Origin: Escherichia phage ZG49
Reading direction: 5' to 3' (one strand)
DNA: 40,291 nucleotides
Sequence record: NC_047777.1
Part shown: positions 1 through 40,291 of the stretch, piece after piece
Numbering within the stretch: the first letter of the stretch is position 1
How the letters are laid out: the number at the start of each line of letters is the position of its first letter
Notes under the pieces: generated by a model
What the model was told of the DNA's origin: nothing
What the model saw: only the letters and a program-made list of their open reading frames with translations
Databases searched by the model: none
Translations under genes and position numbers: made by a program

Positions 1-401
1 CCTAAGGCTTGCACCGATGGAAGGAGGGTGATATTAATCATAATCCCTCCAATACAGATAGTCACCGACCATAGATACAGGAGGTATGTAGCATATGGCA
101 AAGACCAAAGCTGTACTTAAAGCTCTGGCGACCAATCGAGCTACATACAGGTTTCTTGCTGCTGTTCTACTTGCTGCTGGCGTTACTGCTGGAAGTAAGT
201 GGGTCGGGTGGGTCGAGACTCTCGTATGTTCTCTGGTGTCTCAGTGTAATTAACGCAATCATGGTAACGATTCATGAGCGGAAGACCTAAGGTCAGTACG
301 TGGATAAAGACTCACTCTACTGACCTTAGCTACTGTAGTCAAGGACTTTAGGTAACACCTTAATAGAAGCTCACCTAGGGTCATCCTACTTATTGGTCTA
401 T
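1..401. repeat. Left direct terminal repeat, identical to 39891-40291
   Basis: Bases 1-401 read identically to 39891-40291; window begins and ends exactly on the repeat; T7-like genomes carry direct terminal repeats. Confidence 0.8.
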
Positions 402-689
402 CCTAGTGTCGCCTGACCTACGGTCCTTGACCTACAGTAGCTGCCACCTACGGTCACTCGATGAGTTTTGGACCAAAAGTTTGAGACCACATCTCACAGT
501 TCAAGAACCTCAAGTCTCCCCATAGGCCCTCTTTAAGTCCAGACCAAAGGCCCTACCCCAGTCTATCATAAGGCTGGACCGATGGTCAAGACGTTAGGTC
601 AACGATAGGTCTAGGCTATGGCTGGAGGTCAGGACGATAGGTAGGGACTATGGGTCTGTCTCTGAGTCTCTATCTGTATAACCATAGGT

Positions 690-780
690 CCTACAACCTA
701 GTCCTACAACCTACAGTCCTACAACCTACAGTCCTACAACCTACAGTCCTACAACCTACAGTCCTACAACCTACAGTCTA
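690..780. repeat. Tandem array of about 6 copies of a 15-bp unit (GTCCTACAACCTACA) in the left-end non-coding region
   Basis: Direct reading: a 13-bp partial copy followed by five exact 15-bp copies; no spacers. Confidence 0.8.
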
Positions 781-947
781 ACTAACCTACAGTATCAACC
801 ATAAGACACCAACACCTACGGTCATAGACCCACAGTTAATAGACACAAAGCTATAGACTTAAGGTCTTAAACATGTTAGTCAAAGACTATATCCTATTAC
901 ACCATGGGGCCGACGATAGCTTAATCAATATTATTTAAGATTACCTA

Positions 948-1309: not shown

Positions 1310-1834
1310 ATGAAACTGATAGGCAAAGGCGCGTTCACTAAGTGCTACCTGAAGGATTGCGGAAAGCGTGTACTTCTGGTCTCTTCAGACCCAATCAAGG
1401 AGTGTATGGCGTGGGGATGGTTCCCTGAGTCTTCACTGTTCCCTGAAGTCAAGATGATTGAGGTGGGCACGTATGAGATGGACTACATGCCACCAACACG
1501 AGGTCTCAAGGCGCATTTAGATGACGACCAGTGGCAACTCTATCAGGTGCTGCGAGATTGCTTCTCACGGTCTCCGGTATTCTCTCGACCTGCTGACCTG
1601 TATCACAAGTGGTACGAGATATTCCAAGCTGCACACGACAGGTCTGAGACCGAGACTGTGCGGGAAGGTCTGATGGATGTACTGATGGCGCTGGACGCTT
1701 GCGCTAACTTCGGGTCTGACATTCAGTTTGAGATAAGCCCACGAAATGTACGGGCTGTGAATGGTAAGCTGATACTAGTGGATTGTTTCTTCCTTGTGTC
1801 CAAGCTGCCAGAGGTGAGGGCGTTAAGATGGTAA
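1310..1834 (+). CDS. gp0.7-like serine/threonine protein kinase (kinase domain only, 174 aa)
   Basis: Glycine-rich loop IGKGAFTKCY resembles T7 gp0.7 LGNGHFSAAY; further similarity (VLRDCF, ILVDCFF); RBS AAGGA upstream; first gene after early promoters. Confidence 0.7.
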   Translation: MKLIGKGAFTKCYLKDCGKRVLLVSSDPIKECMAWGWFPESSLFPEVKMIEVGTYEMDYMPPTRGLKAHLDDDQWQLYQVLRDCFSRSPVFSRPADLYHKWYEIFQAAHDRSETETVREGLMDVLMALDACANFGSDIQFEISPRNVRAVNGKLILVDCFFLVSKLPEVRALRW

Positions 1835-2289
1835 CTTATGGTCTCTGCCAGCACCACGTCACCAACGCCCGGCTTATGGTCGAGACCGGGCAGTTAGACC
1901 ACGAGATGACGACCAGTGGCAACTCTATCAGGTGCTGCGAGATTGCTTCTCACGGTCTCCGGTATTCTCTCGACCTGCTGACCTGTATCACAAGTGGTAC
2001 GAGATATTCCAAGCTGCACACGACAGGTCTGAGACCGAGACTGTGCGGGAAGGTCTGATGGATGTACTGATGGCGCTGGACGCTTGCGCTAACTTCGGGT
2101 CTGACATTCAGTTTGAGATAAGCCCACGAAATGTACGGGCTGTGAATGGTAAGCTGATACTAGTGGATTGTTTCTTCCTTGTGTCCAAGCTGCCAGAGGT
2201 GAGGGCGTTAAGATGGTAACTTATGGTCTCTGCCAGCACCACGTCACCAACGCCCGGCTTATGGTCGAGACCGGGCAGTTAGACCACGA
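1520..2289. repeat. Tandem duplication A: two identical 385-bp copies (1520-1904, 1905-2289)
   Basis: Direct reading; ORFs 1310-1834 and 1932-2219 share an identical C-terminal 95 aa; 1783-2058 and 2168-2362 share their N-terminus. Confidence 0.9.
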
Positions 2290-6429: not shown

Positions 6430-6681
6430 ATGAGTGAACGTTGGTTATTCGACGCATCCACGAGCCAGTGGTCAGCGGTAGGCCGGACTCACCGCGCGAT
6501 GAGTGAGGCAGGACTTGATGTCCTAATGGATTACTCGCCGTGCCCCGGAAAAACTCTGGTCAGAGTAATTGAAGCAGATGGTGGGAGGCTTCTGGTCTCC
6601 AGAGAATTTACCGAAGATGAAATCTTTAGCTGTGAGCAATGGTGCTTACAACAATTGAACGATTATAGGAGCTGGAAATAA
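6430..6681 (+). CDS. gp1.2-like protein (dGTPase inhibitor family)
   Basis: 83 aa versus T7 gp1.2 85 aa; similar C-terminal end (DYRSWK versus DQLKDWK); conserved position. Confidence 0.5.
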   Translation: MSERWLFDASTSQWSAVGRTHRAMSEAGLDVLMDYSPCPGKTLVRVIEADGGRLLVSREFTEDEIFSCEQWCLQQLNDYRSWK

Positions 6682-7736
6682 TGACTACGACTATTAAAAC
6701 TAACCCGCACCGCGCTGTAGATTACTCTGAGTCAGGAGTTACGAAAGCACTGGCAGCAGCCGGGTCGCTGGAAGCTGAAGTGAAGTATGATGGTGTGCGG
6801 CTGAACCTCCCGGTCTTCCCTACTGGTGAGACTCAATGGTTGAGCCGTGAGTCTAAACCTCTCCCAGCCCTTGAGTGGCTGTCAGTCCTTACCAACATCG
6901 ACAACATCGTCGGGGACCAGCAAAAAGCTAGCGACTGGCGGTGGTTCCTGAAGCAGGCTGGCTACGAAGGCACTGGTCTGATGATTGACGGTGAGGTCAT
7001 GGTAAAAGGAATGGACTTCAATACGTCTTCAGGTCTCATCCGAACGAAGTGGGTAAAGCAAAAGAACTTTGAGTTTTCAACTGGTGAGCACTGGGGTAAG
7101 GACTGGACGAAAGAGAAGCTACCATTCTGTCTGGACCAGAGGTTCATCAAGGTGGTCGTCTACGGTGTAGTGGACCTTAACGTCATCCTTGACCCGAAAG
7201 CCGAAGGTCCTATCCATAGCGTCACACGCCTGAAGGCCGAAGCTATCGTCCCTCTCCTCCAGAAATACTCCCCTGAAATCGACTGGGTTCTGTCTGAGTC
7301 ACACACGGTCTATGACCTTGAGTCGCTCAGCTCCCTGTACGAAGAGAAGCGGCTGGAAGGACATGAGGGTCTGGTAGTCAAGGACCCACTGGGTAAATAC
7401 AAGCGTGGCAAGAAGTCAGGCATGTGGAAGATGAAGCCAAGCGAAGAGGCAGACGGTCACGTTGTGCGCCCTGTGTGGGGTACGGATGGGTTAGCCAACG
7501 AAGGCATGGTCATCGGATTTGACGTTATGCTTGAGAACGGGATGGAGGTCTCCGCAACTAACATTAGTCGCGCCCTTATGTCCGAGTTCACGGAGAATGT
7601 TAAGTCAGACCCTGACTACTACAAGGGGTGGGCTTGCCAGATTACCTACATGGAGGAGACACCAGATGGCTCATTGCGACACCCCTCGTTCGACCAGTGG
7701 CGTGGAACTGAGGATAACCCGACCATTAAGAGCTAA
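6681..7736 (+). CDS. ATP-dependent DNA ligase (gp1.3-like)
   Basis: Adenylation motif KYDGVR; 351 aa versus T7 ligase 359 aa; conserved position. Confidence 0.9.
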   Translation: MTTTIKTNPHRAVDYSESGVTKALAAAGSLEAEVKYDGVRLNLPVFPTGETQWLSRESKPLPALEWLSVLTNIDNIVGDQQKASDWRWFLKQAGYEGTGLMIDGEVMVKGMDFNTSSGLIRTKWVKQKNFEFSTGEHWGKDWTKEKLPFCLDQRFIKVVVYGVVDLNVILDPKAEGPIHSVTRLKAEAIVPLLQKYSPEIDWVLSESHTVYDLESLSSLYEEKRLEGHEGLVVKDPLGKYKRGKKSGMWKMKPSEEADGHVVRPVWGTDGLANEGMVIGFDVMLENGMEVSATNISRALMSEFTENVKSDPDYYKGWACQITYMEETPDGSLRHPSFDQWRGTEDNPTIKS

Positions 7737-7867: not shown

Positions 7868-8122
7868 ATGTTTAAGAACTTAATGTTCAATCGTTATACC
7901 AGTACATTCCACCTGTCTCACAACCCATTAGCTTGCATTAAGCGCAACGAGAAGCTGGGCTACTTCGGGAAGGCCGTTAAGCTGTCACCTACAGTCTTCG
8001 CTCTGATTACTCCGGGCAAAGCTGAAGAGGCTCGCCAGAAGCGTGCGACCCACGTACCTGTGGTCTACACTAAGTGGCCTCGAGTTCGTCTGTTCGTTGA
8101 GTTCGTGAAGGAGGTGTTCTGA
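7868..8122 (+). CDS. gp1.6-like hypothetical protein (84 aa)
   Basis: RBS AAGGAGG; position between ligase and gp1.7. Confidence 0.5.
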   Translation: MFKNLMFNRYTSTFHLSHNPLACIKRNEKLGYFGKAVKLSPTVFALITPGKAEEARQKRATHVPVVYTKWPRVRLFVEFVKEVF

Positions 8123-8854
8123 TGGGATGTATAGCTTGCTTAGAGAAACCAGAGGTAACTCCTACAGATGACCAACCTTCCACTGAGTCAATCGACGCTG
8201 TCCGCAAGCCGTCCCACTATCAGGTATTTGACGGAGTGGAGTCCATTGAGATTATCGCTCGGTCCATGACTGTCAGCGAGTTCCGTGGGTTCTGCATGGG
8301 TAACGTCCTGAAGTATCGACTCCGAGCTGGTAAGAAGTCCGAGCTGGCTACTATGGAGAAGGACCTGAACAAAGCGGACTTCTATCAGGAGCTGTTCGAC
8401 CTGAGCTGGGCTACTTCGGGAAGGCCGTTAAGCTGTCACCTACAGTCTTCGCTCTGATTACTCCGGGCAAAGCTGAAGAGGCTCGCCAGAAGCGTGCGAC
8501 CCACGTACCTGTGGTCTACACTAAGTGGCCTCGAGTTCGTCTGTTCGTTGAGTTCGTGAAGGAGGTGTTCTGATGGGATGTATAGCTTGCTTAGAGAAAC
8601 CAGAGGTAACTCCTACAGATGACCAACCTTCCACTGAGTCAATCGACGCTGTCCGCAAGCCGTCCCACTATCAGGTATTTGACGGAGTGGAGTCCATTGA
8701 GATTATCGCTCGGTCCATGACTGTCAGCGAGTTCCGTGGGTTCTGCATGGGTAACGTCCTGAAGTATCGACTCCGAGCTGGTAAGAAGTCCGAGCTGGCT
8801 ACTATGGAGAAGGACCTGAACAAAGCGGACTTCTATCAGGAGCTGTTCGACCTG
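7953..8854. repeat. Tandem duplication B: two identical 451-bp copies (7953-8403, 8404-8854)
   Basis: Direct reading; ORFs 8122-8457 and 8573-8881 share their first 94 aa. Confidence 0.9.
8122..8457 (+). pseudogene. Chimeric gp1.7 copy created by duplication B (native C-terminus replaced by out-of-frame gp1.6 sequence)
   Basis: Identical to 8573-8881 until ...QELFDL, then diverges at the duplication junction. Confidence 0.6.
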
Positions 8855-9221: not shown

Positions 9222-9920
9222 ATGGCTAAAGAGCAACTGAAGACTTTCACCACTCCGGTAGCTGGTATCGTTGAGCCTTACGCATGGCTGAACAAAGCAG
9301 ACACCAAGTTTAACGAGCGTGGTGAGCATAAGGTTAACCTGACATTCGACCTGAGCAACCCGAAGGTCCGTAAGATGATTGATGTCTTACAGAAGATTCA
9401 CGACGATGCGTATGCGAAAGCACTTGCAGACCACGAGAAGAACCCACCTCAGGTTCAGCGTGGCAAGAAGCCTATTGAACCACGAGAAGGCGACATGCCG
9501 TGGATTGAGAATGGTGACGGTACTGTTACCATGAAGTTTAAATGCTTCGCGTCTTACCTGAAGGATGGTAAGTCTGAGCCTATCATATTACGGTTCTACG
9601 ACACCGATGCTAAGTTAATCCGTGACGTCCCGAATATTGGCGCTGGCTCAAAGCTGAAGGTCAAGTTTAAAGTCCTGCCGTTTAAGTGGAACGCTGCGAC
9701 TGGTGCAAGCGTTAAGCTACAGCTTGAGTCCTGCCTTCTGGTAGAACTGAAGGAGTGGAAAGGCGATGGTGCTGGTGGCGATGGTGGTTGGGGTGATGAT
9801 GAAGACCTCGGTACTGGCTACAAAGCGTCAACCGATGGTGACTTCGGGTCTGATGACTTCGGTGACGATGGTTCCGAAGGTGGTGACGACTCCAACTCTG
9901 GTGGCGATTACGACTTCTAA
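9222..9920 (+). CDS. Single-stranded DNA-binding protein (gp2.5-like, 232 aa)
   Basis: Same length as T7 gp2.5; acidic Gly/Asp-rich C-terminal tail ending in aromatic F (GGDYDF). Confidence 0.9.
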   Translation: MAKEQLKTFTTPVAGIVEPYAWLNKADTKFNERGEHKVNLTFDLSNPKVRKMIDVLQKIHDDAYAKALADHEKNPPQVQRGKKPIEPREGDMPWIENGDGTVTMKFKCFASYLKDGKSEPIILRFYDTDAKLIRDVPNIGAGSKLKVKFKVLPFKWNAATGASVKLQLESCLLVELKEWKGDGAGGDGGWGDDEDLGTGYKASTDGDFGSDDFGDDGSEGGDDSNSGGDYDF

Positions 9921-9976: not shown

Positions 9977-10426
9977 ATGAGTAGAGGACATCAAGTAGGT
10001 GCTTATCGCTCTGGACTCGAAGCAAAGAACCAAGAGTGGCTTGAGAAGAATGGCGTAAAAGCTGAATACGAAGCATATAAAATAGGCTACGTAGTACCAT
10101 CCAGCGACCACTTCTACACACCAGATTTTATCCTTCCTAACGGTATCATCGTGGAGACCAAAGGTCTCTTCGATAGTGATGACCGTAAGAAGCACCTTCT
10201 GGTACGAGAACAGCACCCTGAGTTAGACATTCGGTTCGTGTTCTCAAGTTCACGCTCCAAGTTATACAAGGGGTCTCCGACCACGTATGGCGCATGGTGC
10301 GAAAAGAACGGCTTTAAGTTTGCCGACAAGTTTATCCCGGTTGAGTGGCTGAGAGAGGTGACTGTACGTCTACCTTCAGGTATTCTCATCCCCAAGAAGA
10401 AAGGAGTTAAGGATATTCGCACCTAA
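9977..10426 (+). CDS. Endonuclease I (gp3-like Holliday junction resolvase, 149 aa from ATG 9977)
   Basis: Strong similarity to T7 gp3 (GAYRSGLE, YTPDF, PNGI.VETKGL..SDDRKKHLL.REQHPELDIR.VFSSSR.KLYKGSPT); track ORF starts earlier at 9920. Confidence 0.85.
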   Translation: MSRGHQVGAYRSGLEAKNQEWLEKNGVKAEYEAYKIGYVVPSSDHFYTPDFILPNGIIVETKGLFDSDDRKKHLLVREQHPELDIRFVFSSSRSKLYKGSPTTYGAWCEKNGFKFADKFIPVEWLREVTVRLPSGILIPKKKGVKDIRT

Positions 10427-11009
10427 AGCGAGACCCTTAAGTTTATGGCTGAAAAATACTCAGTAAGTGAGACAACCATAAGTCGAATCAGGAACAACAA
10501 GAGGTGGAAATAATAATGGGAAGTAAAGTACAATTCATGCCACGCAAGTCAACTGACGCTATCTTCGTTCACTGTTCGGCTACCAAGCCAGAGATGGACA
10601 TCGGGGTAGAGACCATCCGTATGGTGTTCTCAAGTTCACGCTCCAAGTTATACAAGGGGTCTCCGACCACGTATGGCGCATGGTGCGAAAAGAACGGCTT
10701 TAAGTTTGCCGACAAGTTTATCCCGGTTGAGTGGCTGAGAGAGGTGACTGTACGTCTACCTTCAGGTATTCTCATCCCCAAGAAGAAAGGAGTTAAGGAT
10801 ATTCGCACCTAAAGCGAGACCCTTAAGTTTATGGCTGAAAAATACTCAGTAAGTGAGACAACCATAAGTCGAATCAGGAACAACAAGAGGTGGAAATAAT
10901 AATGGGAAGTAAAGTACAATTCATGCCACGCAAGTCAACTGACGCTATCTTCGTTCACTGTTCGGCTACCAAGCCAGAGATGGACATCGGGGTAGAGACC
11001 ATCCGTATG
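10238..11009. repeat. Tandem duplication C: two identical 386-bp copies (10238-10623, 10624-11009)
   Basis: Direct reading; ORF 10504-10812 has the lysozyme N-terminus fused to the endonuclease I C-terminus. Confidence 0.9.
10504..10812 (+). pseudogene. Chimeric ORF: lysozyme N-terminal 40 aa fused to endonuclease I C-terminal 62 aa
   Basis: N-terminus identical to 10890-11360 and C-terminus identical to 9920-10426; switch at the duplication junction. Confidence 0.6.
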
Positions 11010-11360
11010 TGGCACAAGCAACAAGGCTGGCTGGACGTAGGCTACCACTTTATCATCAAGCGAGATGGCACTGTGGAAGAGGGTCGCCCGGTCAATGTCG
11101 TAGGGTCACACGTTAAGGACTGGAACTCAAAGTCCGTAGGCGTCTGCCTTGTAGGTGGAATTGACGCTAAGGGCAAGTTTGAAGCTAACTTCACTCCGGC
11201 CCAGATGAACTCCCTGCGCAACAAGCTGGCTGACCTGAAGGCCCTGTATCCTCAGGCAGAAATAAAAGCACACCATGATGTAGCACCTAAGGCGTGTCCA
11301 AGTTTCGACTTGCAACGCTGGCTGTCTACCGATGAACTGGTCACTTCCGACCGTGGTTAA
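10902..11360 (+). CDS. Lysozyme / N-acetylmuramoyl-L-alanine amidase (gp3.5-like)
   Basis: Strong similarity to T7 lysozyme (STDAIFVHCSATKP, WLDVGYHFIIKRDGTVE, HH..APKACPSFD, ELVTSDRG); ATG 10902 after GAGGTGGA. Confidence 0.9.
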   Translation: MGSKVQFMPRKSTDAIFVHCSATKPEMDIGVETIRMWHKQQGWLDVGYHFIIKRDGTVEEGRPVNVVGSHVKDWNSKSVGVCLVGGIDAKGKFEANFTPAQMNSLRNKLADLKALYPQAEIKAHHDVAPKACPSFDLQRWLSTDELVTSDRG

Positions 11361-11585: not shown

Positions 11586-11597
11586 TTCTTCAAAGAC

Positions 11598-11665: not shown

Positions 11666-13369
<1,704 letters not shown>

Positions 13370-33576: not shown

Positions 33577-35637
33577 ATGTCCACGATTACACAATTCCCT
33601 TCAGGAAACACTCAGTACAGGATTGAGTTCGACTACCTAGCCAGAACGTTTGTTGTTGTTACGCTGGTGAATAGCTCTAACCCTACCCTGAACCGTGTAC
33701 TGGAAGTTGGTCGAGATTACCGATTCCTTAACCCAACGATGATTGAGATGTTGGTTGACCAATCAGGTTTCGACATCGTTCGTATTCACCGTCAGACTGG
33801 AACTGACTTAGTGGTAGACTTCAGGAATGGCTCAGTGTTGACAGCTAGTGACCTGACCAATTCAGAGCTTCAGGCTATCCATATTGCAGAAGAAGGTCGA
33901 GACCAAACGGTTGACTTAGCGAAGGAATATGCCGATGCTGCTGGTAGCTCTGCTGGCAACGCTAAGGATAGCGAGGACGAAGCACGCCGAATCGCTGCGA
34001 GTATCAGGGAAGCTGGTCTAATTGGCTATATTACCCGTCGCTCCTTCGAGAAAGGCTACAACGTTACAACATGGAGCGAGGTCCTGCTATGGGAAGAGGA
34101 TGGTGATTATTACCGCTGGGATGGTACGCTTCCAAAGAACGTTCCTGCTGGTTCAACTCCTGAAACTTCCGGTGGGATTGGATTAGGTGCGTGGGTTAGT
34201 GTTGGTGATGCTGCTTTAAGAAGTCAGATTTCAAACCCGGAAGGGGCAATACTCTACCCGGAATTGCAGATGGCAAGATGGCGTGATGAGGGTGATGTTC
34301 GAGGCTGGGGTGCTAAAGGGGATGGTGTAACAGATAGTACGGAGAATATAGCTGCTTCACTAAATTCTCAAAAAGCTGTCGTAGCATCAGAAGGTGTATT
34401 CTCTAGTTCTGGTATTAATAGTAATTACTGTAACTTAGACGGTAGAGGCAGTGGTGTACTAAGTCACCGTTCAAGTACAGGTAACTACTTAGTATTTAAC
34501 AATCTACGCTCAGGTCGCTTAAGTAATATTACGGTAGAAAGTAATAAGGCGACCGATACCACTCAAGGGCAGCAGGTATCTCTTGCTGGTGGCAGTGATG
34601 TTACTATAAGTGATGTTAATTTCTCAAACGTTAAGGGCGCTGGTTTCAGTTTAATCACATACCCTAATGATGCACCCTCTGATGGGCTTATGATTAAAGG
34701 CATTCGAGGTAGCTACTCCGGCTATGCTACTAATAAGGCGGCTGGATGCATACTTGCTGATTCCTCAGTTAACTCCCTCATAAATAACGTCATTGCTAAG
34801 AACTACCCTCAGTTCGGGGCTGTAGAACTGAAAGGTACAGCCAGTTATAACATAGTCAGCAATGTTATAGGGGCAGACTGCCAGCATGTAACTTACAACG
34901 GTACAGAAGGGTCAATAGCTCCCTCTAACAACCTTATCAATGGGGTAGTGGCTAATAATCCTAAATATGCAGCGGTTGTTGCAGGCAAAGGTAGTACCAA
35001 CTTAATCTCCGATGTGCTTGTAGATTTCTCAACCTCTGATGCTAGGCAGGCTCATGGTGTTACAGTAGAAGGTTCTGATAACGTCATAAATAATGTGCTT
35101 ATGTCAGGGTGTGATGGTACTAACTCTTTAGGGCAAGCTCAGACTGCTACAATTGCGCGCTTTATAGATACGGCTAATAACAACTATGCGTCTGTATTTC
35201 CTAGCTACAGTGCTACAGGTGTTATTACTTTCGAATCAGGTTCTACCCGTAACTTCGTAGAGGTAAAGCATCCGGGAAGGAGAAACGACCTTCTCAGTGC
35301 TACTGGTACTATTGAAGGTAAAGTTACTATTGACGGCACTAGTAATAGCAACGTAGTGCACGCTCCTGCATTAGGACAGTACATAGGCAGTATGTCCGGT
35401 AGGTTCGAATGGCGGATTAAGTCCATGTCACTTCCGTCAGGCGTTCTTACCTCGGCTGATAAGTACAGAATGCTTGGGGATGGTGCTGTGTCATTAGCTG
35501 TAGGTGGGGGTACTTCTTCTCAAGTTCGCCTATTTACTTCTGATGGTACTTATCGGACAGTATCACTCACCAACGGTAACGTGCGTCTTCCTACCAGTAG
35601 CACAGGTTATTTGCAGTTAGGTTCTAGCTCCCTCTAA
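33577..35637 (+). CDS. Tailspike (gp17-like), N-terminal 686-aa fragment truncated by tandem duplication D
   Basis: N-terminal 150 aa resemble the T7 gp17 adaptor domain (EFDYLARTFVVVTL, DYRF, VDFRNGSVL.ASDL, IAEEGRD); then a beta-helix-like region (WGAKGDGVTD); reading frame breaks at the duplication junction at 35625. Confidence 0.8.
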   Translation: MSTITQFPSGNTQYRIEFDYLARTFVVVTLVNSSNPTLNRVLEVGRDYRFLNPTMIEMLVDQSGFDIVRIHRQTGTDLVVDFRNGSVLTASDLTNSELQAIHIAEEGRDQTVDLAKEYADAAGSSAGNAKDSEDEARRIAASIREAGLIGYITRRSFEKGYNVTTWSEVLLWEEDGDYYRWDGTLPKNVPAGSTPETSGGIGLGAWVSVGDAALRSQISNPEGAILYPELQMARWRDEGDVRGWGAKGDGVTDSTENIAASLNSQKAVVASEGVFSSSGINSNYCNLDGRGSGVLSHRSSTGNYLVFNNLRSGRLSNITVESNKATDTTQGQQVSLAGGSDVTISDVNFSNVKGAGFSLITYPNDAPSDGLMIKGIRGSYSGYATNKAAGCILADSSVNSLINNVIAKNYPQFGAVELKGTASYNIVSNVIGADCQHVTYNGTEGSIAPSNNLINGVVANNPKYAAVVAGKGSTNLISDVLVDFSTSDARQAHGVTVEGSDNVINNVLMSGCDGTNSLGQAQTATIARFIDTANNNYASVFPSYSATGVITFESGSTRNFVEVKHPGRRNDLLSATGTIEGKVTIDGTSNSNVVHAPALGQYIGSMSGRFEWRIKSMSLPSGVLTSADKYRMLGDGAVSLAVGGGTSSQVRLFTSDGTYRTVSLTNGNVRLPTSSTGYLQLGSSSL

Positions 35638-36333
35638 CAACCTTATCAATGGGGTAGTGGCTAATAATCCTAAATATGCAGCGGTTGTTGCAGGCAAAGG
35701 TAGTACCAACTTAATCTCCGATGTGCTTGTAGATTTCTCAACCTCTGATGCTAGGCAGGCTCATGGTGTTACAGTAGAAGGTTCTGATAACGTCATAAAT
35801 AATGTGCTTATGTCAGGGTGTGATGGTACTAACTCTTTAGGGCAAGCTCAGACTGCTACAATTGCGCGCTTTATAGATACGGCTAATAACAACTATGCGT
35901 CTGTATTTCCTAGCTACAGTGCTACAGGTGTTATTACTTTCGAATCAGGTTCTACCCGTAACTTCGTAGAGGTAAAGCATCCGGGAAGGAGAAACGACCT
36001 TCTCAGTGCTACTGGTACTATTGAAGGTAAAGTTACTATTGACGGCACTAGTAATAGCAACGTAGTGCACGCTCCTGCATTAGGACAGTACATAGGCAGT
36101 ATGTCCGGTAGGTTCGAATGGCGGATTAAGTCCATGTCACTTCCGTCAGGCGTTCTTACCTCGGCTGATAAGTACAGAATGCTTGGGGATGGTGCTGTGT
36201 CATTAGCTGTAGGTGGGGGTACTTCTTCTCAAGTTCGCCTATTTACTTCTGATGGTACTTATCGGACAGTATCACTCACCAACGGTAACGTGCGTCTTCC
36301 TACCAGTAGCACAGGTTATTTGCAGTTAGGTTC
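34916..36333. repeat. Tandem duplication D: two identical 709-bp copies (34916-35624, 35625-36333) inside the tailspike gene
   Basis: Direct reading; ORFs 33577-35637 and 35657-36817 share about 230 identical residues. Confidence 0.9.
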
Positions 36334-36817
36334 CAATGCAATGACCCCAGATAGTACTAATACATACGCATTAGGTTCCGCAAGTCGAGCATGGTCTGGC
36401 GGTTTTACTCAATCAGCATTCACTGTTGTCTCAGATGCTAGGGATAAAACAGAGCCTCTTAATATCTCAGATGCTTTACTGGATGCTTGGTCTGAAGTTG
36501 ACTTTGTGCAGTTTCAGTACTTGGACCGAATTGAGGAGAAGGGTGCAGACTCAGCTAGATGGCACTTCGGCATCATCGCTCAGCGAGCTACGGAGGCCTT
36601 CGAACGTCACGGTATAGATGCACATCGCTATGGCTTCCTGTGCTTCGACAGTTGGGATGATGTGTACGAGGAAGATGCCAATGGCTCTCGTAAACTGATT
36701 ACACCAGCAGGTTCCCGCTATGGTATTCGTTACGAGGAAGTACTGATATTAGAGGCTGCGTTGATGCGGCGTACTATTAAGCGTATGCAGGAAGCATTAG
36801 CTGTTATGTCTAAGTGA
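35657..36817 (+). CDS. Tailspike C-terminal fragment (386 aa) including an intramolecular-chaperone-like domain
   Basis: C-terminus GSASRAWSGGFTQSAFTVVSDARDKTEP... resembles peptidase S74-type chaperone domains of phage tailspikes; begins at an internal Met created by the duplication. Confidence 0.65.
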   Translation: MANNPKYAAVVAGKGSTNLISDVLVDFSTSDARQAHGVTVEGSDNVINNVLMSGCDGTNSLGQAQTATIARFIDTANNNYASVFPSYSATGVITFESGSTRNFVEVKHPGRRNDLLSATGTIEGKVTIDGTSNSNVVHAPALGQYIGSMSGRFEWRIKSMSLPSGVLTSADKYRMLGDGAVSLAVGGGTSSQVRLFTSDGTYRTVSLTNGNVRLPTSSTGYLQLGSNAMTPDSTNTYALGSASRAWSGGFTQSAFTVVSDARDKTEPLNISDALLDAWSEVDFVQFQYLDRIEEKGADSARWHFGIIAQRATEAFERHGIDAHRYGFLCFDSWDDVYEEDANGSRKLITPAGSRYGIRYEEVLILEAALMRRTIKRMQEALAVMSK

Positions 36818-37927: not shown

Positions 37928-39687
37928 GTAAAGATTTAGTGGCGCGTCGGGCGCTAGTGACTACCCGTATGAAGGCAGACTTCGTGTTCTTCCTGTTCGT
38001 CCTGTGGAAAGCCTTGTCACTCCCAGTCCCGACTCGCTGTCAGATTGACATGGCGAAGAAACTATCGGCTGGGGACAACAGGCGTTTCATCCTACAGGCG
38101 TTCCGTGGTATCGGGAAGTCCTTCATTACGTGTGCCTTCGTGGTCTGGAAGCTATGGAACAACCCAGACTTGAAGTTCATGATTGTGTCGGCCTCAAAGG
38201 AACGAGCCGATGCTAACTCCATCTTCATCAAGCGAATCATCGACCTCATGCCTCAGCTTAAGGAACTCAAACCTAAGCAGGGGCAGCGAGATGCGGTTAT
38301 CAGCTTCGACGTTGGACCAGCCAAGCCAGACCACTCACCTTCGGTTAAGTCCGTTGGTATCACTGGTCAGTTGACTGGTAGTCGTGCTGACATCCTGATT
38401 GCCGATGACGTGGAGGTTCCGAACAACTCAGCGACTCAGGCTGCACGAGACCGTCTGTCAGAGCTTGTGAAAGAGTTCGACGCTATCCTGAAGCCGGGAG
38501 GTACAATCATCTATCTGGGTACTCCTCAGAACGAGATGACCTTGTATCGTGAGCTGGAAGGCCGTGGATACACCACTACCATCTGGCCTGCTCGTTATCC
38601 ACGCGACAGGAAGGACTGGCAGTCTTACGGCGACCGTCTGGCACCGATGCTTCAGGCAGAGCTTGAAGAGGACCCTGAGTCCTTCTACTGGCGTCCGACC
38701 GATGAAGTACGATTCGATGATACGGACCTGAAGGAACGTGAGCTGTCCTATGGTAAAGCTGGCTTCGCTCTACAGTTCATGCTTAACCCTAACCTGAGTG
38801 ATGCTGAGAAGCACCCTCTGAAGCTCCGTGACCTTATCGTAGCCGACTTGGACCCAGCGTCTAGCCCAATGGTATACCAATGGCTTCCTAACCCTCAGAA
38901 CAAGCGTGAGGACGTTCCTAACGTTGGACTCATGGGTGACTCATACCACACGTATCAGACTGTAGGTTCTGCCTTCAGTTCGTACACCCAGAAGATTCTG
39001 GTCATTGACCCTAGTGGTCGTGGTAAGGATGAAACTGGTTATGCGGTACTGTACCAGCTAAACGGCTACATCTTCGCTATGGAAGTTGGCGGTATGCGAG
39101 GTGGCTATGAAGACTCTACGCTGGAAGCCTTGGCTAAGATTGGTCGTAAGTGGAAGGTCAACGAATACGTCATTGAGGGTAACTTCGGTGATGGTATGTA
39201 CCTTGAGCTATTCAAGCCTGTAGCTTCCCGTATTCATCCTGCTGCTGTAACTGAAGTGAAGAGTAAGGGTCAGAAGGAACTCCGCATCTGTGACGTTCTG
39301 GAGCCTATCATGGGGTCTCACCGACTTATCGTCAACGCTTCTGCTATCGTCCAAGACTACCAGACAGCCTCTGATAAGGATGGTGTGCGTAACCCTATCT
39401 ACTCTCTCTTCTATCAGATGACCCGTATCTCTCGTGAACGTGGAGCACTGGCACACGATGACCGACTTGATGCGCTGGCTATCGGTGTACAGTTCTTCGT
39501 TGAGTCTATGGCTAAGGATGCCAACAAAGGCGAACGTGAAGTCACTGAGGAGTGGCTGGAGGAACAGATGGAGAACCCACGGAAAGGCTTTGAGTCCATC
39601 CACACTGAGTTCTGGGACAATGGGGTCCGGGTAACTCACGATACTGACGACGAGCTGGGGCTAGGGTCCTACGTTACGTTCCACTAG
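37924..39687 (+). CDS. Terminase large subunit (gp19-like), apparent TTG start
   Basis: Near-colinear similarity to T7 gp19 ([91 protein letters not shown]); N-terminus aligns from the TTG at 37924, 7 nt after GGAGG. Confidence 0.93.
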
Positions 39688-39890: not shown

Positions 39891-40291
39891 CCTAAGGCTT
39901 GCACCGATGGAAGGAGGGTGATATTAATCATAATCCCTCCAATACAGATAGTCACCGACCATAGATACAGGAGGTATGTAGCATATGGCAAAGACCAAAG
40001 CTGTACTTAAAGCTCTGGCGACCAATCGAGCTACATACAGGTTTCTTGCTGCTGTTCTACTTGCTGCTGGCGTTACTGCTGGAAGTAAGTGGGTCGGGTG
40101 GGTCGAGACTCTCGTATGTTCTCTGGTGTCTCAGTGTAATTAACGCAATCATGGTAACGATTCATGAGCGGAAGACCTAAGGTCAGTACGTGGATAAAGA
40201 CTCACTCTACTGACCTTAGCTACTGTAGTCAAGGACTTTAGGTAACACCTTAATAGAAGCTCACCTAGGGTCATCCTACTTATTGGTCTAT
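39891..40291. repeat. Right direct terminal repeat, identical to 1-401
   Basis: Direct comparison of both ends. Confidence 0.8.

What the first reader, a model, noticed from the sequence alone, without database searches (positions are those of the whole stretch)
10238..11009. 386-bp duplication creates a lysozyme/endonuclease I chimera
The unit spans the 3' end of the endonuclease I gene, the intergenic region and the 5' end of the lysozyme gene. Intact copies of both genes remain (9977-10426, 10902-11360), with a chimeric ORF 10504-10812 between them.
Basis: seen in the sequence. Interest (0 to 1): 0.5.

Follow-up and report, generated by a model that had tools for sequence, protein, structure and literature searches.

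The report
Probable assembly-made duplication in T7-like phage
The 386-base duplication is really in the sequence, but it is one of five perfect, similar-sized redundancies in this T7-like phage genome, one of which breaks an essential gene, so it is most likely an assembly error and not a new fusion gene.

Summary
Bases 10238-10623 and 10624-11009 are a perfect head-to-tail 386-bp repeat. It leaves endonuclease I (gp3) and lysozyme (gp3.5) intact and creates an in-frame gp3.5(1-36)/gp3(88-149) ORF.

The window is a circularly permuted Kayfunavirus assembly with three more perfect tandem duplications, of 385, 451 and 709 bp. It also has a 401-bp end overlap that is not the biological terminal repeat.

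- **Essential gene broken:** the 709-bp duplication lies inside the tailspike gene gp17 and frameshifts it. Removing the duplication restores an 843-aa protein 97% identical to that of phage IME177.
- **No microhomology:** the four junctions share 0-1 nt.
- **Absent elsewhere:** 1.59 Mb of related phage DNA holds no comparable repeat. The junction was not found in IMG/VR, JGI metagenomes or GTDB genomes, nor in any of the best-matching records of the phage collection.
- **Precedent:** the pattern matches documented "artefactual tandem expansions", in which overlapping contig ends are joined in tandem.

Most likely this is not a real biological feature (about 0.8). Even if real, the chimera lacks all catalytic residues of both parent enzymes. 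Interest is low. Read mapping or one PCR would settle it.

The parts
10238..10623 (+). Copy 1 of the 386-bp tandem unit (gp3 codons 88-149, 89-bp intergenic stretch, gp3.5 codons 1-36)
   Evidence: Period-386 exact run 10238-10623
10624..11009 (+). Copy 2 of the 386-bp tandem unit, 386/386 identical and directly abutted, with 0 nt junction microhomology
9977..10426 (+). gp3, T7-type endonuclease I, intact (149 aa from ATG 9977; an upstream ATG at 9920 gives 168 aa)
   Evidence: Pfam Phage_endo_I E 1.2e-75; PDB 1M0D/2PFJ E 1e-59
10516..10812 (+). Chimeric ORF (98 aa): gp3.5 residues 1-36 fused in frame to gp3 residues 88-149. It has the same ribosome-binding site and start context as gp3.5.
10902..11360 (+). 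gp3.5, T7-type lysozyme (N-acetylmuramoyl-L-alanine amidase), intact (152 aa)
   Evidence: Pfam Amidase_2; PDB 1ARO/1LBA T7 lysozyme E 7e-71
10445..10513 (+). 22-aa ORF that is the 3' remnant of an HNH homing-endonuclease gene; duplicated again at 10831-10899
   Evidence: 21/22 identical to the C-terminus of the annotated HNH endonuclease of phage PH1061
1519..2289 (+). Sister duplication A: 1519-1904 / 1904-2289, period 385, perfect, 1 nt microhomology. It spans the end of a 174-aa early ORF and the start of the next gene (by position the gp0.4-like ORF of related contigs; not checked in the window).
7953..8854 (+). Sister duplication B: 7953-8403 / 8404-8854, period 451, perfect, 0 nt microhomology. 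It spans the gp1.6 3' end and the gp1.7 5' end.
34916..36333 (+). Sister duplication D: 34916-35624 / 35625-36333, period 709, perfect, 0 nt microhomology. It lies wholly inside tailspike gene gp17 and frameshifts it.
33577..35637 (+). Truncated gp17 N-fragment (686 aa: T7 tail-fibre N domain plus tailspike N domain), cut off by duplication D
35657..36817 (+). gp17 C-fragment ORF (386 aa) carrying the Peptidase_S74 intramolecular chaperone domain, separated from the N-fragment by duplication D
1..401 (+). 401-bp end overlap, identical to 39891-40291. It lies between phiOR and the true terminal repeat and includes the gp19.5-like ORF, so it is not the biological terminal repeat.
39891..40291 (+). 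Second copy of the 401-bp end overlap
492..671 (+). Position of the true direct terminal repeat by homology to EcoDS1 (annotated TR 1-178 and 39075-39252), present once. This shows the window is a circularly permuted assembly with a collapsed terminal repeat.

Best explanation
The 386-bp tandem duplication is most likely not part of the phage's real genome. It looks like an artefactual tandem expansion. During assembly or finishing, or some other in-silico construction of this sequence, adjacent pieces that overlapped by a few hundred bases were joined end to end instead of being merged. This left a perfect head-to-tail repeat at each of four internal joins (385, 451, 386 and 709 bp) and a 401-bp overlap where the circularised assembly was opened. 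On this reading the real phage has the ordinary Kayfunavirus order gp2.5-gp3-gp3.5-gp4, a unique sequence of 37,959 bp, and no lysozyme/endonuclease I chimera. Shown here: the repeats, their perfection, their number, the broken gp17, and the absence from relatives. Inferred: that the cause is assembly. Without reads this cannot be proven.
For: (1) The window has five perfect redundancies of one size class: four internal tandem duplications of 385, 451, 386 and 709 bp, and a 401-bp end overlap. (2) By homology to EcoDS1, the biological terminal repeat sits at window ~492-671 in a single copy. The window is therefore an uncurated, circularly permuted assembly, and its 401-bp overlap is non-biological. 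(3) Duplication D lies entirely inside gp17, and 709 mod 3 = 1. gp17 is split into a 686-aa fragment and a 386-aa fragment that carries the Peptidase_S74 chaperone domain. Collapsing the repeat restores an 843-aa ORF, 819/843 identical to IME177 gp17. gp17 is the only ORF of the collapsed genome lost in the window. In K1F the tailspike is essential, its C-terminal chaperone domain is required for folding, and stop codons are not tolerated (PMC12632334). (4) Junction microhomology is 1, 0, 0 and 0 nt, which is what chance gives. (5) In 82 related loci (1.59 Mb) the only perfect direct repeats longer than 87 bp at spacing 30-1500 belong to a 42-bp minisatellite. (6) IME177 holds each duplicated unit it shares with the window once: B, C and D in full, and of A only the conserved 3' part. 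Collapsed versions of A, B and D align contiguously to relatives, and no relative spans any junction. (7) Junction C is absent from IMG/VR, JGI metagenomes and GTDB genomes. The parental breakpoints are found exactly in 9 and 2 IMG/VR contigs. In the 50,697 phage records, every listed best hit to the junction matched as two separate pieces in normal gene order. [quoted passage not shown] The phage annotation guide tells authors to inspect contigs for duplicated regions (PMC8785237).
Against: No reads are available, so the artefact is inferred and not demonstrated. Duplication C on its own is compatible with a viable phage, because both genes stay intact. A very recent real duplication would also be 100% identical. 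De Bruijn assemblers do not normally leave 385-709-bp overlaps, so the exact pipeline that would do this is unknown. Duplications A, B and C all happen to preserve every gene, although that is expected for ~400-bp units among small early genes.
Confidence: 0.8

Rival explanations
1. Duplication C is a genuine, very recent tandem duplication in this Kayfunavirus, made by illegitimate recombination or template switching during T7-type replication. The phage then expresses a 98-aa gp3.5(1-36)/gp3(88-149) fusion from the gp3.5 translation signals.
For: Both parental genes remain intact and the fusion is in frame. The fusion ORF has the same upstream sequence as gp3.5 because 278 bp upstream of the start codon are duplicated. 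Perfect identity is also expected for a recent event. Adding 386 bp (1%) to the genome is, from general knowledge of T7, within packaging tolerance.
Against: There is no microhomology at the breakpoints. From my own knowledge, spontaneous T7 rearrangements characteristically use short direct repeats (Studier 1979; Pierce, Kong and Masker 1991; not retrieved here). The only natural indel seen at this locus does show imperfect microhomology. The genome carries three more such repeats and a non-biological end overlap, and one repeat kills gp17. The junction was not found in any collection searched. A 386-bp perfect tandem repeat should be lost quickly by the efficient T7-type homologous recombination (general knowledge, not tested). 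In-frame fusion has a 1-in-3 chance, and the hybrid ORFs made by duplications A and B are out of frame.
Confidence: 0.12
2. The duplications exist only in a minority of molecules, such as defective genomes, replication or recombination intermediates, or amplification chimeras in the library. The assembler threaded them into the consensus.
For: This would explain how a lethal gp17 disruption can appear in a sequence obtained from a propagating phage. It would also explain why several rearrangements co-occur in one assembly.
Against: Four independent minority rearrangements would all have to win the consensus. Nothing in the sequence itself distinguishes this from plain mis-joining. In practice it is still an artefact with respect to the phage genome.
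Confidence: 0.06

Closest known systems
Artefactual tandem expansions from mis-joined contig ends (Mandel, Stabb and Ruby 2008, Vibrio fischeri ES114 v1.0; PMC2330054)
   Same: Several unique stretches of a few hundred bases (318-1264 bp there, 385-709 bp here) are incorporated twice in tandem. They split or duplicate ORFs and are absent from close relatives.
   Different: In that study the artefact was proven by resequencing, whereas here it is only inferred. That case was a bacterial Sanger assembly and this is a 40-kb phage genome from an unknown pipeline.
Untrimmed circularisation overlap and collapsed terminal repeat in phage assemblies (Phage Annotation Guide, PMC8785237)
   Same: The window opens at an arbitrary point, repeats its first 401 bp at its end, and holds the true terminal repeat once, internally.
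   Different: The guide describes end redundancy and contigs extended past 100% of the genome. Internal tandem repeats such as the one in the finding are an additional error type.
T7 gene 3 (endonuclease I) and gene 3.5 (lysozyme/amidase) module of Studiervirinae
   Same: gp3 and gp3.5 are clear orthologues (PDB 1M0D E 1e-59; 1ARO E 7e-71). They sit in the canonical order between gp2.5 and gp4.
   Different: The variable slot between them holds gp3.2, with or without an HNH endonuclease, in relatives. Here it is reduced to a ~110-bp HNH gene remnant. The apparent second, partial copy is the duplication under test.
Genuine repeat-mediated deletions and duplications in T7-like phages
   Same: These would also give a head-to-tail repeat with identical copies.
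   Different: As far as I know, such events use short direct repeats at the breakpoints. Here microhomology is 0 nt at this junction and 0-1 nt at the other three.

Membership tests
Artefactual tandem expansion (overlapping assembly pieces joined in tandem) | The two copies are identical and directly abutted, with no spacer or foreign bases | tested here: met
   386/386 identity, with period equal to unit length
Artefactual tandem expansion (overlapping assembly pieces joined in tandem) | The same kind of error recurs in one assembly, in a size class of a few hundred bases | tested here: met
   Four internal tandem repeats of 385, 451, 386 and 709 bp plus a 401-bp end overlap; compare 318-1264 bp in PMC2330054
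Artefactual tandem expansion (overlapping assembly pieces joined in tandem) | The extra copy is absent from close relatives, and removing it restores normal gene structure | tested here: met
   IME177 holds each unit it shares once. The collapsed gp17 is an 843-aa ORF 97% identical to IME177 gp17. No junction-spanning alignment exists in 91 loci. No comparable repeat exists in 1.59 Mb.
Artefactual tandem expansion (overlapping assembly pieces joined in tandem) | Placement is blind to function and can destroy essential genes | tested here: met
   Duplication D frameshifts gp17. All four periods are not multiples of 3.
Artefactual tandem expansion (overlapping assembly pieces joined in tandem) | No sequencing reads span the junction, and read depth over the collapsed unit equals flanking depth | not testable with these tools
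   No reads are available
Genuine repeat-mediated tandem duplication in a T7-like phage | Short direct repeat (microhomology) at the two parental breakpoints | tested here: not met
   0 nt at junction C, and 1, 0 and 0 nt at A, B and D
Genuine repeat-mediated tandem duplication in a T7-like phage | The genome that carries it is viable, with all essential genes intact | tested here: not met
   Locally met, since gp3 and gp3.5 are intact. The same genome has gp17 split by a sister duplication.
Genuine repeat-mediated tandem duplication in a T7-like phage | The junction is seen in independent sequences | tested here: not met
   0 exact matches in IMG/VR, JGI metagenomes and GTDB genomes. All listed best hits in the phage records matched as two pieces. 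The chimeric protein is not in the protein collection.
Biological direct terminal repeat of T7-like phages (tested for the 401-bp end overlap) | Lies at the physical genome ends, between gene 19.5 and the early promoters, as in EcoDS1 (TR 1-178) | tested here: not met
   The EcoDS1 TR maps to window 492-671. The overlap 1-401 corresponds to EcoDS1 ~38609-39000, upstream of the TR, and includes the gp19.5-like ORF.
Phage endonuclease I (PF05367): is the chimera a functional member? | Catalytic residues E20, D55, E65 and K67 (T7 numbering, from my knowledge of the T7 endonuclease I structures) | tested here: not met
   Using the 1M0D alignment together with my recollection that its chain starts at T7 residue 12, these residues map to gp3 E15, D50, E60 and K62. 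The chimera holds only gp3 residues 88-149 (Pfam profile positions 89-147 only).
T7 lysozyme / Amidase_2 (PF01510): is the chimera a functional member? | Zn ligands H17, H122 and C130, and catalytic Y46 and K128 (T7 numbering, from my knowledge of 1LBA) | tested here: not met
   The chimera keeps only gp3.5 residues 1-36, which contain the H17 equivalent alone. It gave no Amidase_2 hit.

The most novel reading that the evidence does not exclude
Duplication C is real, whatever the other four redundancies are. In that case this Kayfunavirus expresses, at gp3.5 level, a 98-aa in-frame fusion of the lysozyme N-terminus to the C-terminal third of endonuclease I. In T7 the lysozyme N-terminus contributes to RNA-polymerase binding. 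Such a fusion could act as a dominant-negative partner of the intertwined gp3 dimer or as a decoy for the phage RNA polymerase.
Probability: 0.08. Interest if true: 0.3.

Novelty: not a real feature. Interest (0 to 1): 0.07.

Why it matters
If the duplication is accepted at face value, it would put a fictitious lysozyme/endonuclease chimera into annotation. With its three siblings, it would also add a split tailspike and two other hybrid ORFs. The value of this check is in data quality. This genome should be collapsed to 37,959 bp of unique sequence, plus a second copy of the ~180-bp terminal repeat, before it is used for comparative or protein-family work. If the duplication were real, it would be a modest example of gene-fusion birth in a T7-like phage. 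The fusion would lack all catalytic residues of both parent enzymes.

Tried and rejected
- **Exact-sequence look-ups:** the chimeric protein and gp3.5 are not on record, so no independent assembly of the same phage could be compared at this locus. Look-ups of gp2.5 and gp4 found related contigs, all with a single gp3-gp3.2-gp3.5 arrangement. These are different phages, so they say nothing about this isolate.
- **Pieces from different phages:** I tested whether the segments between junctions come from different phages by tracking identity to IME177 along the window. Identity fluctuates in a mosaic pattern everywhere, with no step at the junctions, so there is no evidence for a chimera of strains.
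- **The 401-bp overlap as true terminal repeat:** rejected by homology to the annotated EcoDS1 repeat.
- **Literature on T7 rearrangements:** two searches for breakpoint microhomology and repeat instability in T7 returned nothing specific. Those points rest on my own knowledge and are marked as such.
- **Klebsiella phage SAKp10309:** I checked whether its 'endolysin (x2)' annotation hides a similar duplication. It does not; the first 'endolysin' is the 74-aa gp3.2-slot ORF.
- **Deliberate in-silico duplications:** this cannot be told apart from an assembly error with these tools, and it would lead to the same verdict.

Full report
**What the window is.** The 40,291-bp window is the genome of a T7-like phage of the genus Kayfunavirus (Studiervirinae). 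A 20-kb stretch is 97% identical to Enterobacteria phage IME177, and gene order follows phage EcoDS1. The region of the finding holds the usual genes: gp2.5 SSB (9222-9920), gp3 endonuclease I (9977-10426), gp3.5 lysozyme/amidase (10902-11360) and gp4 primase-helicase (11669-13369). The identifications rest, on Pfam hits (Phage_endo_I E 1e-75, Amidase_2 E 2e-16), and on matches to solved structures (T7 endonuclease I 1M0D E 1e-59; T7 lysozyme 1ARO E 7e-71).

**Check of the observation.** A scan over all periods finds one unbroken run of identity at period 386 from 10238 to 10623. So 10238-10623 and 10624-11009 are 386/386 identical and abut with no spacer. The unit contains gp3 codons 88-149, the 89-bp gp3/gp3.5 intergenic stretch and gp3.5 codons 1-36. 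One intact gp3 and one intact gp3.5 remain. Between them lies an ORF (10504-10812, probable ATG at 10516) that reads gp3.5 residues 1-36 fused in frame to gp3 residues 88-149. Such a repeat cannot be a chance match.

**The context changes the reading.** The same scan finds four more perfect redundancies in the window:

| Label | Coordinates | Period | Junction microhomology | What it spans |
|---|---|---|---|---|
| A | 1519-1904 / 1904-2289 | 385 bp | 1 nt | end of a 174-aa early ORF and start of the next gene |
| B | 7953-8403 / 8404-8854 | 451 bp | 0 nt | gp1.6 3' end and gp1.7 5' end |
| C (the finding) | 10238-10623 / 10624-11009 | 386 bp | 0 nt | gp3 3' end, intergenic stretch, gp3.5 5' end |
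| D | 34916-35624 / 35625-36333 | 709 bp | 0 nt | inside tailspike gene gp17 |
| End overlap | 1-401 = 39891-40291 | n/a | n/a | region after gene 19, including the gp19.5-like ORF |

The end overlap is not the biological terminal repeat. The annotated repeat of EcoDS1 (1-178 and 39075-39252) maps to window ~492-671, where it occurs once. The window is therefore a circularly permuted assembly with a collapsed terminal repeat, opened at an arbitrary point, with an untrimmed 401-bp overlap. That overlap is of the same size class as the internal duplications.

**One sister duplication is incompatible with a live phage.** Duplication D lies wholly inside gp17, and its length (709) is not a multiple of three.
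- In the window, gp17 stops after 686 aa. This fragment holds the T7 tail-fibre N-terminal domain and a tailspike N domain.
- The remainder, including the Peptidase_S74 intramolecular chaperone domain, sits in a separate 386-aa ORF.
- Deleting one copy restores an 843-aa ORF that is 819/843 identical to IME177 gp17.
- gp17 is the only ORF of the collapsed genome that the window lacks in full length.
- For the type phage K1F, the tailspike is essential, its C-terminal chaperone domain is required for folding, and stop codons are not tolerated in deep mutational scanning (PMC12632334).

Duplications A, B and C each span a gene boundary. They spare both neighbouring genes and create a hybrid ORF, which is in frame only for C. 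This is what blind placement predicts: units of about 400 bp among small early genes usually straddle a boundary, while a 709-bp unit in a 2.5-kb gene does not.

**Comparison with relatives and public data.**
- IME177 holds each duplicated unit it shares with the window once: B, C and D in full, and of A only the conserved 3' part.
- Collapsed versions of A, B and D align contiguously to related contigs, and no relative spans any of the four junctions.
- In 82 related loci (1.59 Mb), the only perfect direct repeats longer than 87 bp at spacing 30-1500 belong to a 42-bp minisatellite. The window has four large ones in 40 kb.
- The junction C sequence has no exact match in IMG/VR, JGI metagenome contigs or GTDB genomes. 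As controls, the two parental breakpoint sequences match exactly in 9 and 2 IMG/VR contigs.
- Junction D is also absent from IMG/VR and JGI metagenomes.
- Against 50,697 phage records, every listed best hit to a 160-bp junction probe matched as two separate pieces in normal gene order, 500-750 bp apart.
- The chimeric protein is not in the 15-billion-protein collection.

**Mechanism.** The best-supported explanation is an artefactual tandem expansion: neighbouring assembly pieces that overlapped by a few hundred bases were concatenated instead of merged. This has a well-documented precedent. [quoted passage not shown] The phage annotation guide also warns that contigs should be checked for duplicated regions (PMC8785237). 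The public IME177 record itself ends in a perfect 60-bp tandem repeat, so residues of this kind do occur in this group's records.

The lack of microhomology (1, 0, 0 and 0 nt) fits mis-joining. It does not fit the repeat-mediated rearrangements that, to my knowledge, characterise T7. By contrast, the one natural indel visible at this locus does have an imperfect microhomology (GTTAAG versus GTTGAG). That indel removed gp3.2 and most of an HNH endonuclease gene. I cannot tell an assembler or finishing error from a deliberate in-silico edit, and the verdict would be the same for both. The step from "pattern typical of mis-joining" to "is mis-joining" is inference, because no reads are available.

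**If the duplication were real.** The fusion ORF would be translated like gp3.5, because it shares the same upstream 278 bp, including the GAGGTGG ribosome-binding site. It would lack all four endonuclease I catalytic residues. In T7 numbering these are E20, D55, E65 and K67. Using the 1M0D alignment and my recollection that its chain begins at T7 residue 12, they correspond to gp3 E15, D50, E60 and K62. Of the amidase site it would keep only the first zinc ligand, the H17 equivalent. The T7 residue numbers come from my own knowledge. At most the fusion could act as an interfering fragment. I give the reading that duplication C is real a probability of about 0.12. I give about 0.08 to the narrower reading that the fusion is also expressed and functional.

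**Verdict.** The most likely explanation (0.8) is that this is not a real feature of the phage. Interest is low (0.07). The practical consequence is that the genome should be collapsed to 37,959 bp of unique sequence before use. Read mapping, or a single PCR across 10150-11100 (951 bp versus 565 bp), would settle the question.

Noticed in passing
window 1519-2289, 7953-8854, 34916-36333: Three more perfect head-to-tail duplications (periods 385, 451 and 709 bp) with 0-1 nt junction microhomology. The 709-bp one frameshifts the tailspike gene gp17. The other two create out-of-frame hybrid ORFs (1783-2058, 8122-8457).
   Followed up: yes
window 1-401 and 39891-40291; 492-671: The first 401 bp are repeated exactly at the end of the window. 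By homology to EcoDS1, the real terminal repeat is at ~492-671 and is present once. The window is therefore a circularly permuted assembly with an untrimmed overlap and a collapsed terminal repeat.
   Followed up: yes
window 10403-10513 (again at 10789-10899): The last five codons of gp3 (KDIRT*) and a 22-aa ORF (MAEKYSVSETTISRIRNNKRWK) are the 3' remnant of an HNH homing-endonuclease gene. That gene lies between gp3.2 and gp3.5 in phages PH1061, SD6 and ZH4. The window has lost gp3.2 and most of the HNH gene through a deletion with imperfect microhomology (GTTAAG/GTTGAG).
   Followed up: partly
window 700-793: A tandem array of about six copies of the 15-bp unit AGTCCTACAACCTAC lies just right of the terminal-repeat position. 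It may correspond to the short repeat arrays near T7-group genome ends.
   Followed up: no
window 3068, 6148, 7812, 9153, 17923, 20768, 21755, 26145, 33501, 39775 (plus a variant at 11592): Ten copies of a phage-RNA-polymerase promoter-like consensus (CTAAACTATCACTATAGG) are present. Those I compared lie at positions corresponding to phi promoters annotated in EcoDS1 (for example phi1.6, phi2.5 and phiOR).
   Followed up: no
L001 (MZ398247.1, IME177) 39105-39224: The public IME177 record starts inside gene 16 and ends with a perfect 60-bp tandem repeat (39105-39164 = 39165-39224). This is probably an assembly residue in a database record.
   Followed up: partly
window 6681-7736 versus L001 13374-14449: DNA ligase is a single 351-aa ORF in the window but is annotated as two CDSs (184 and 110 aa) in IME177. 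This suggests a frameshift or sequencing error in that record.
   Followed up: no
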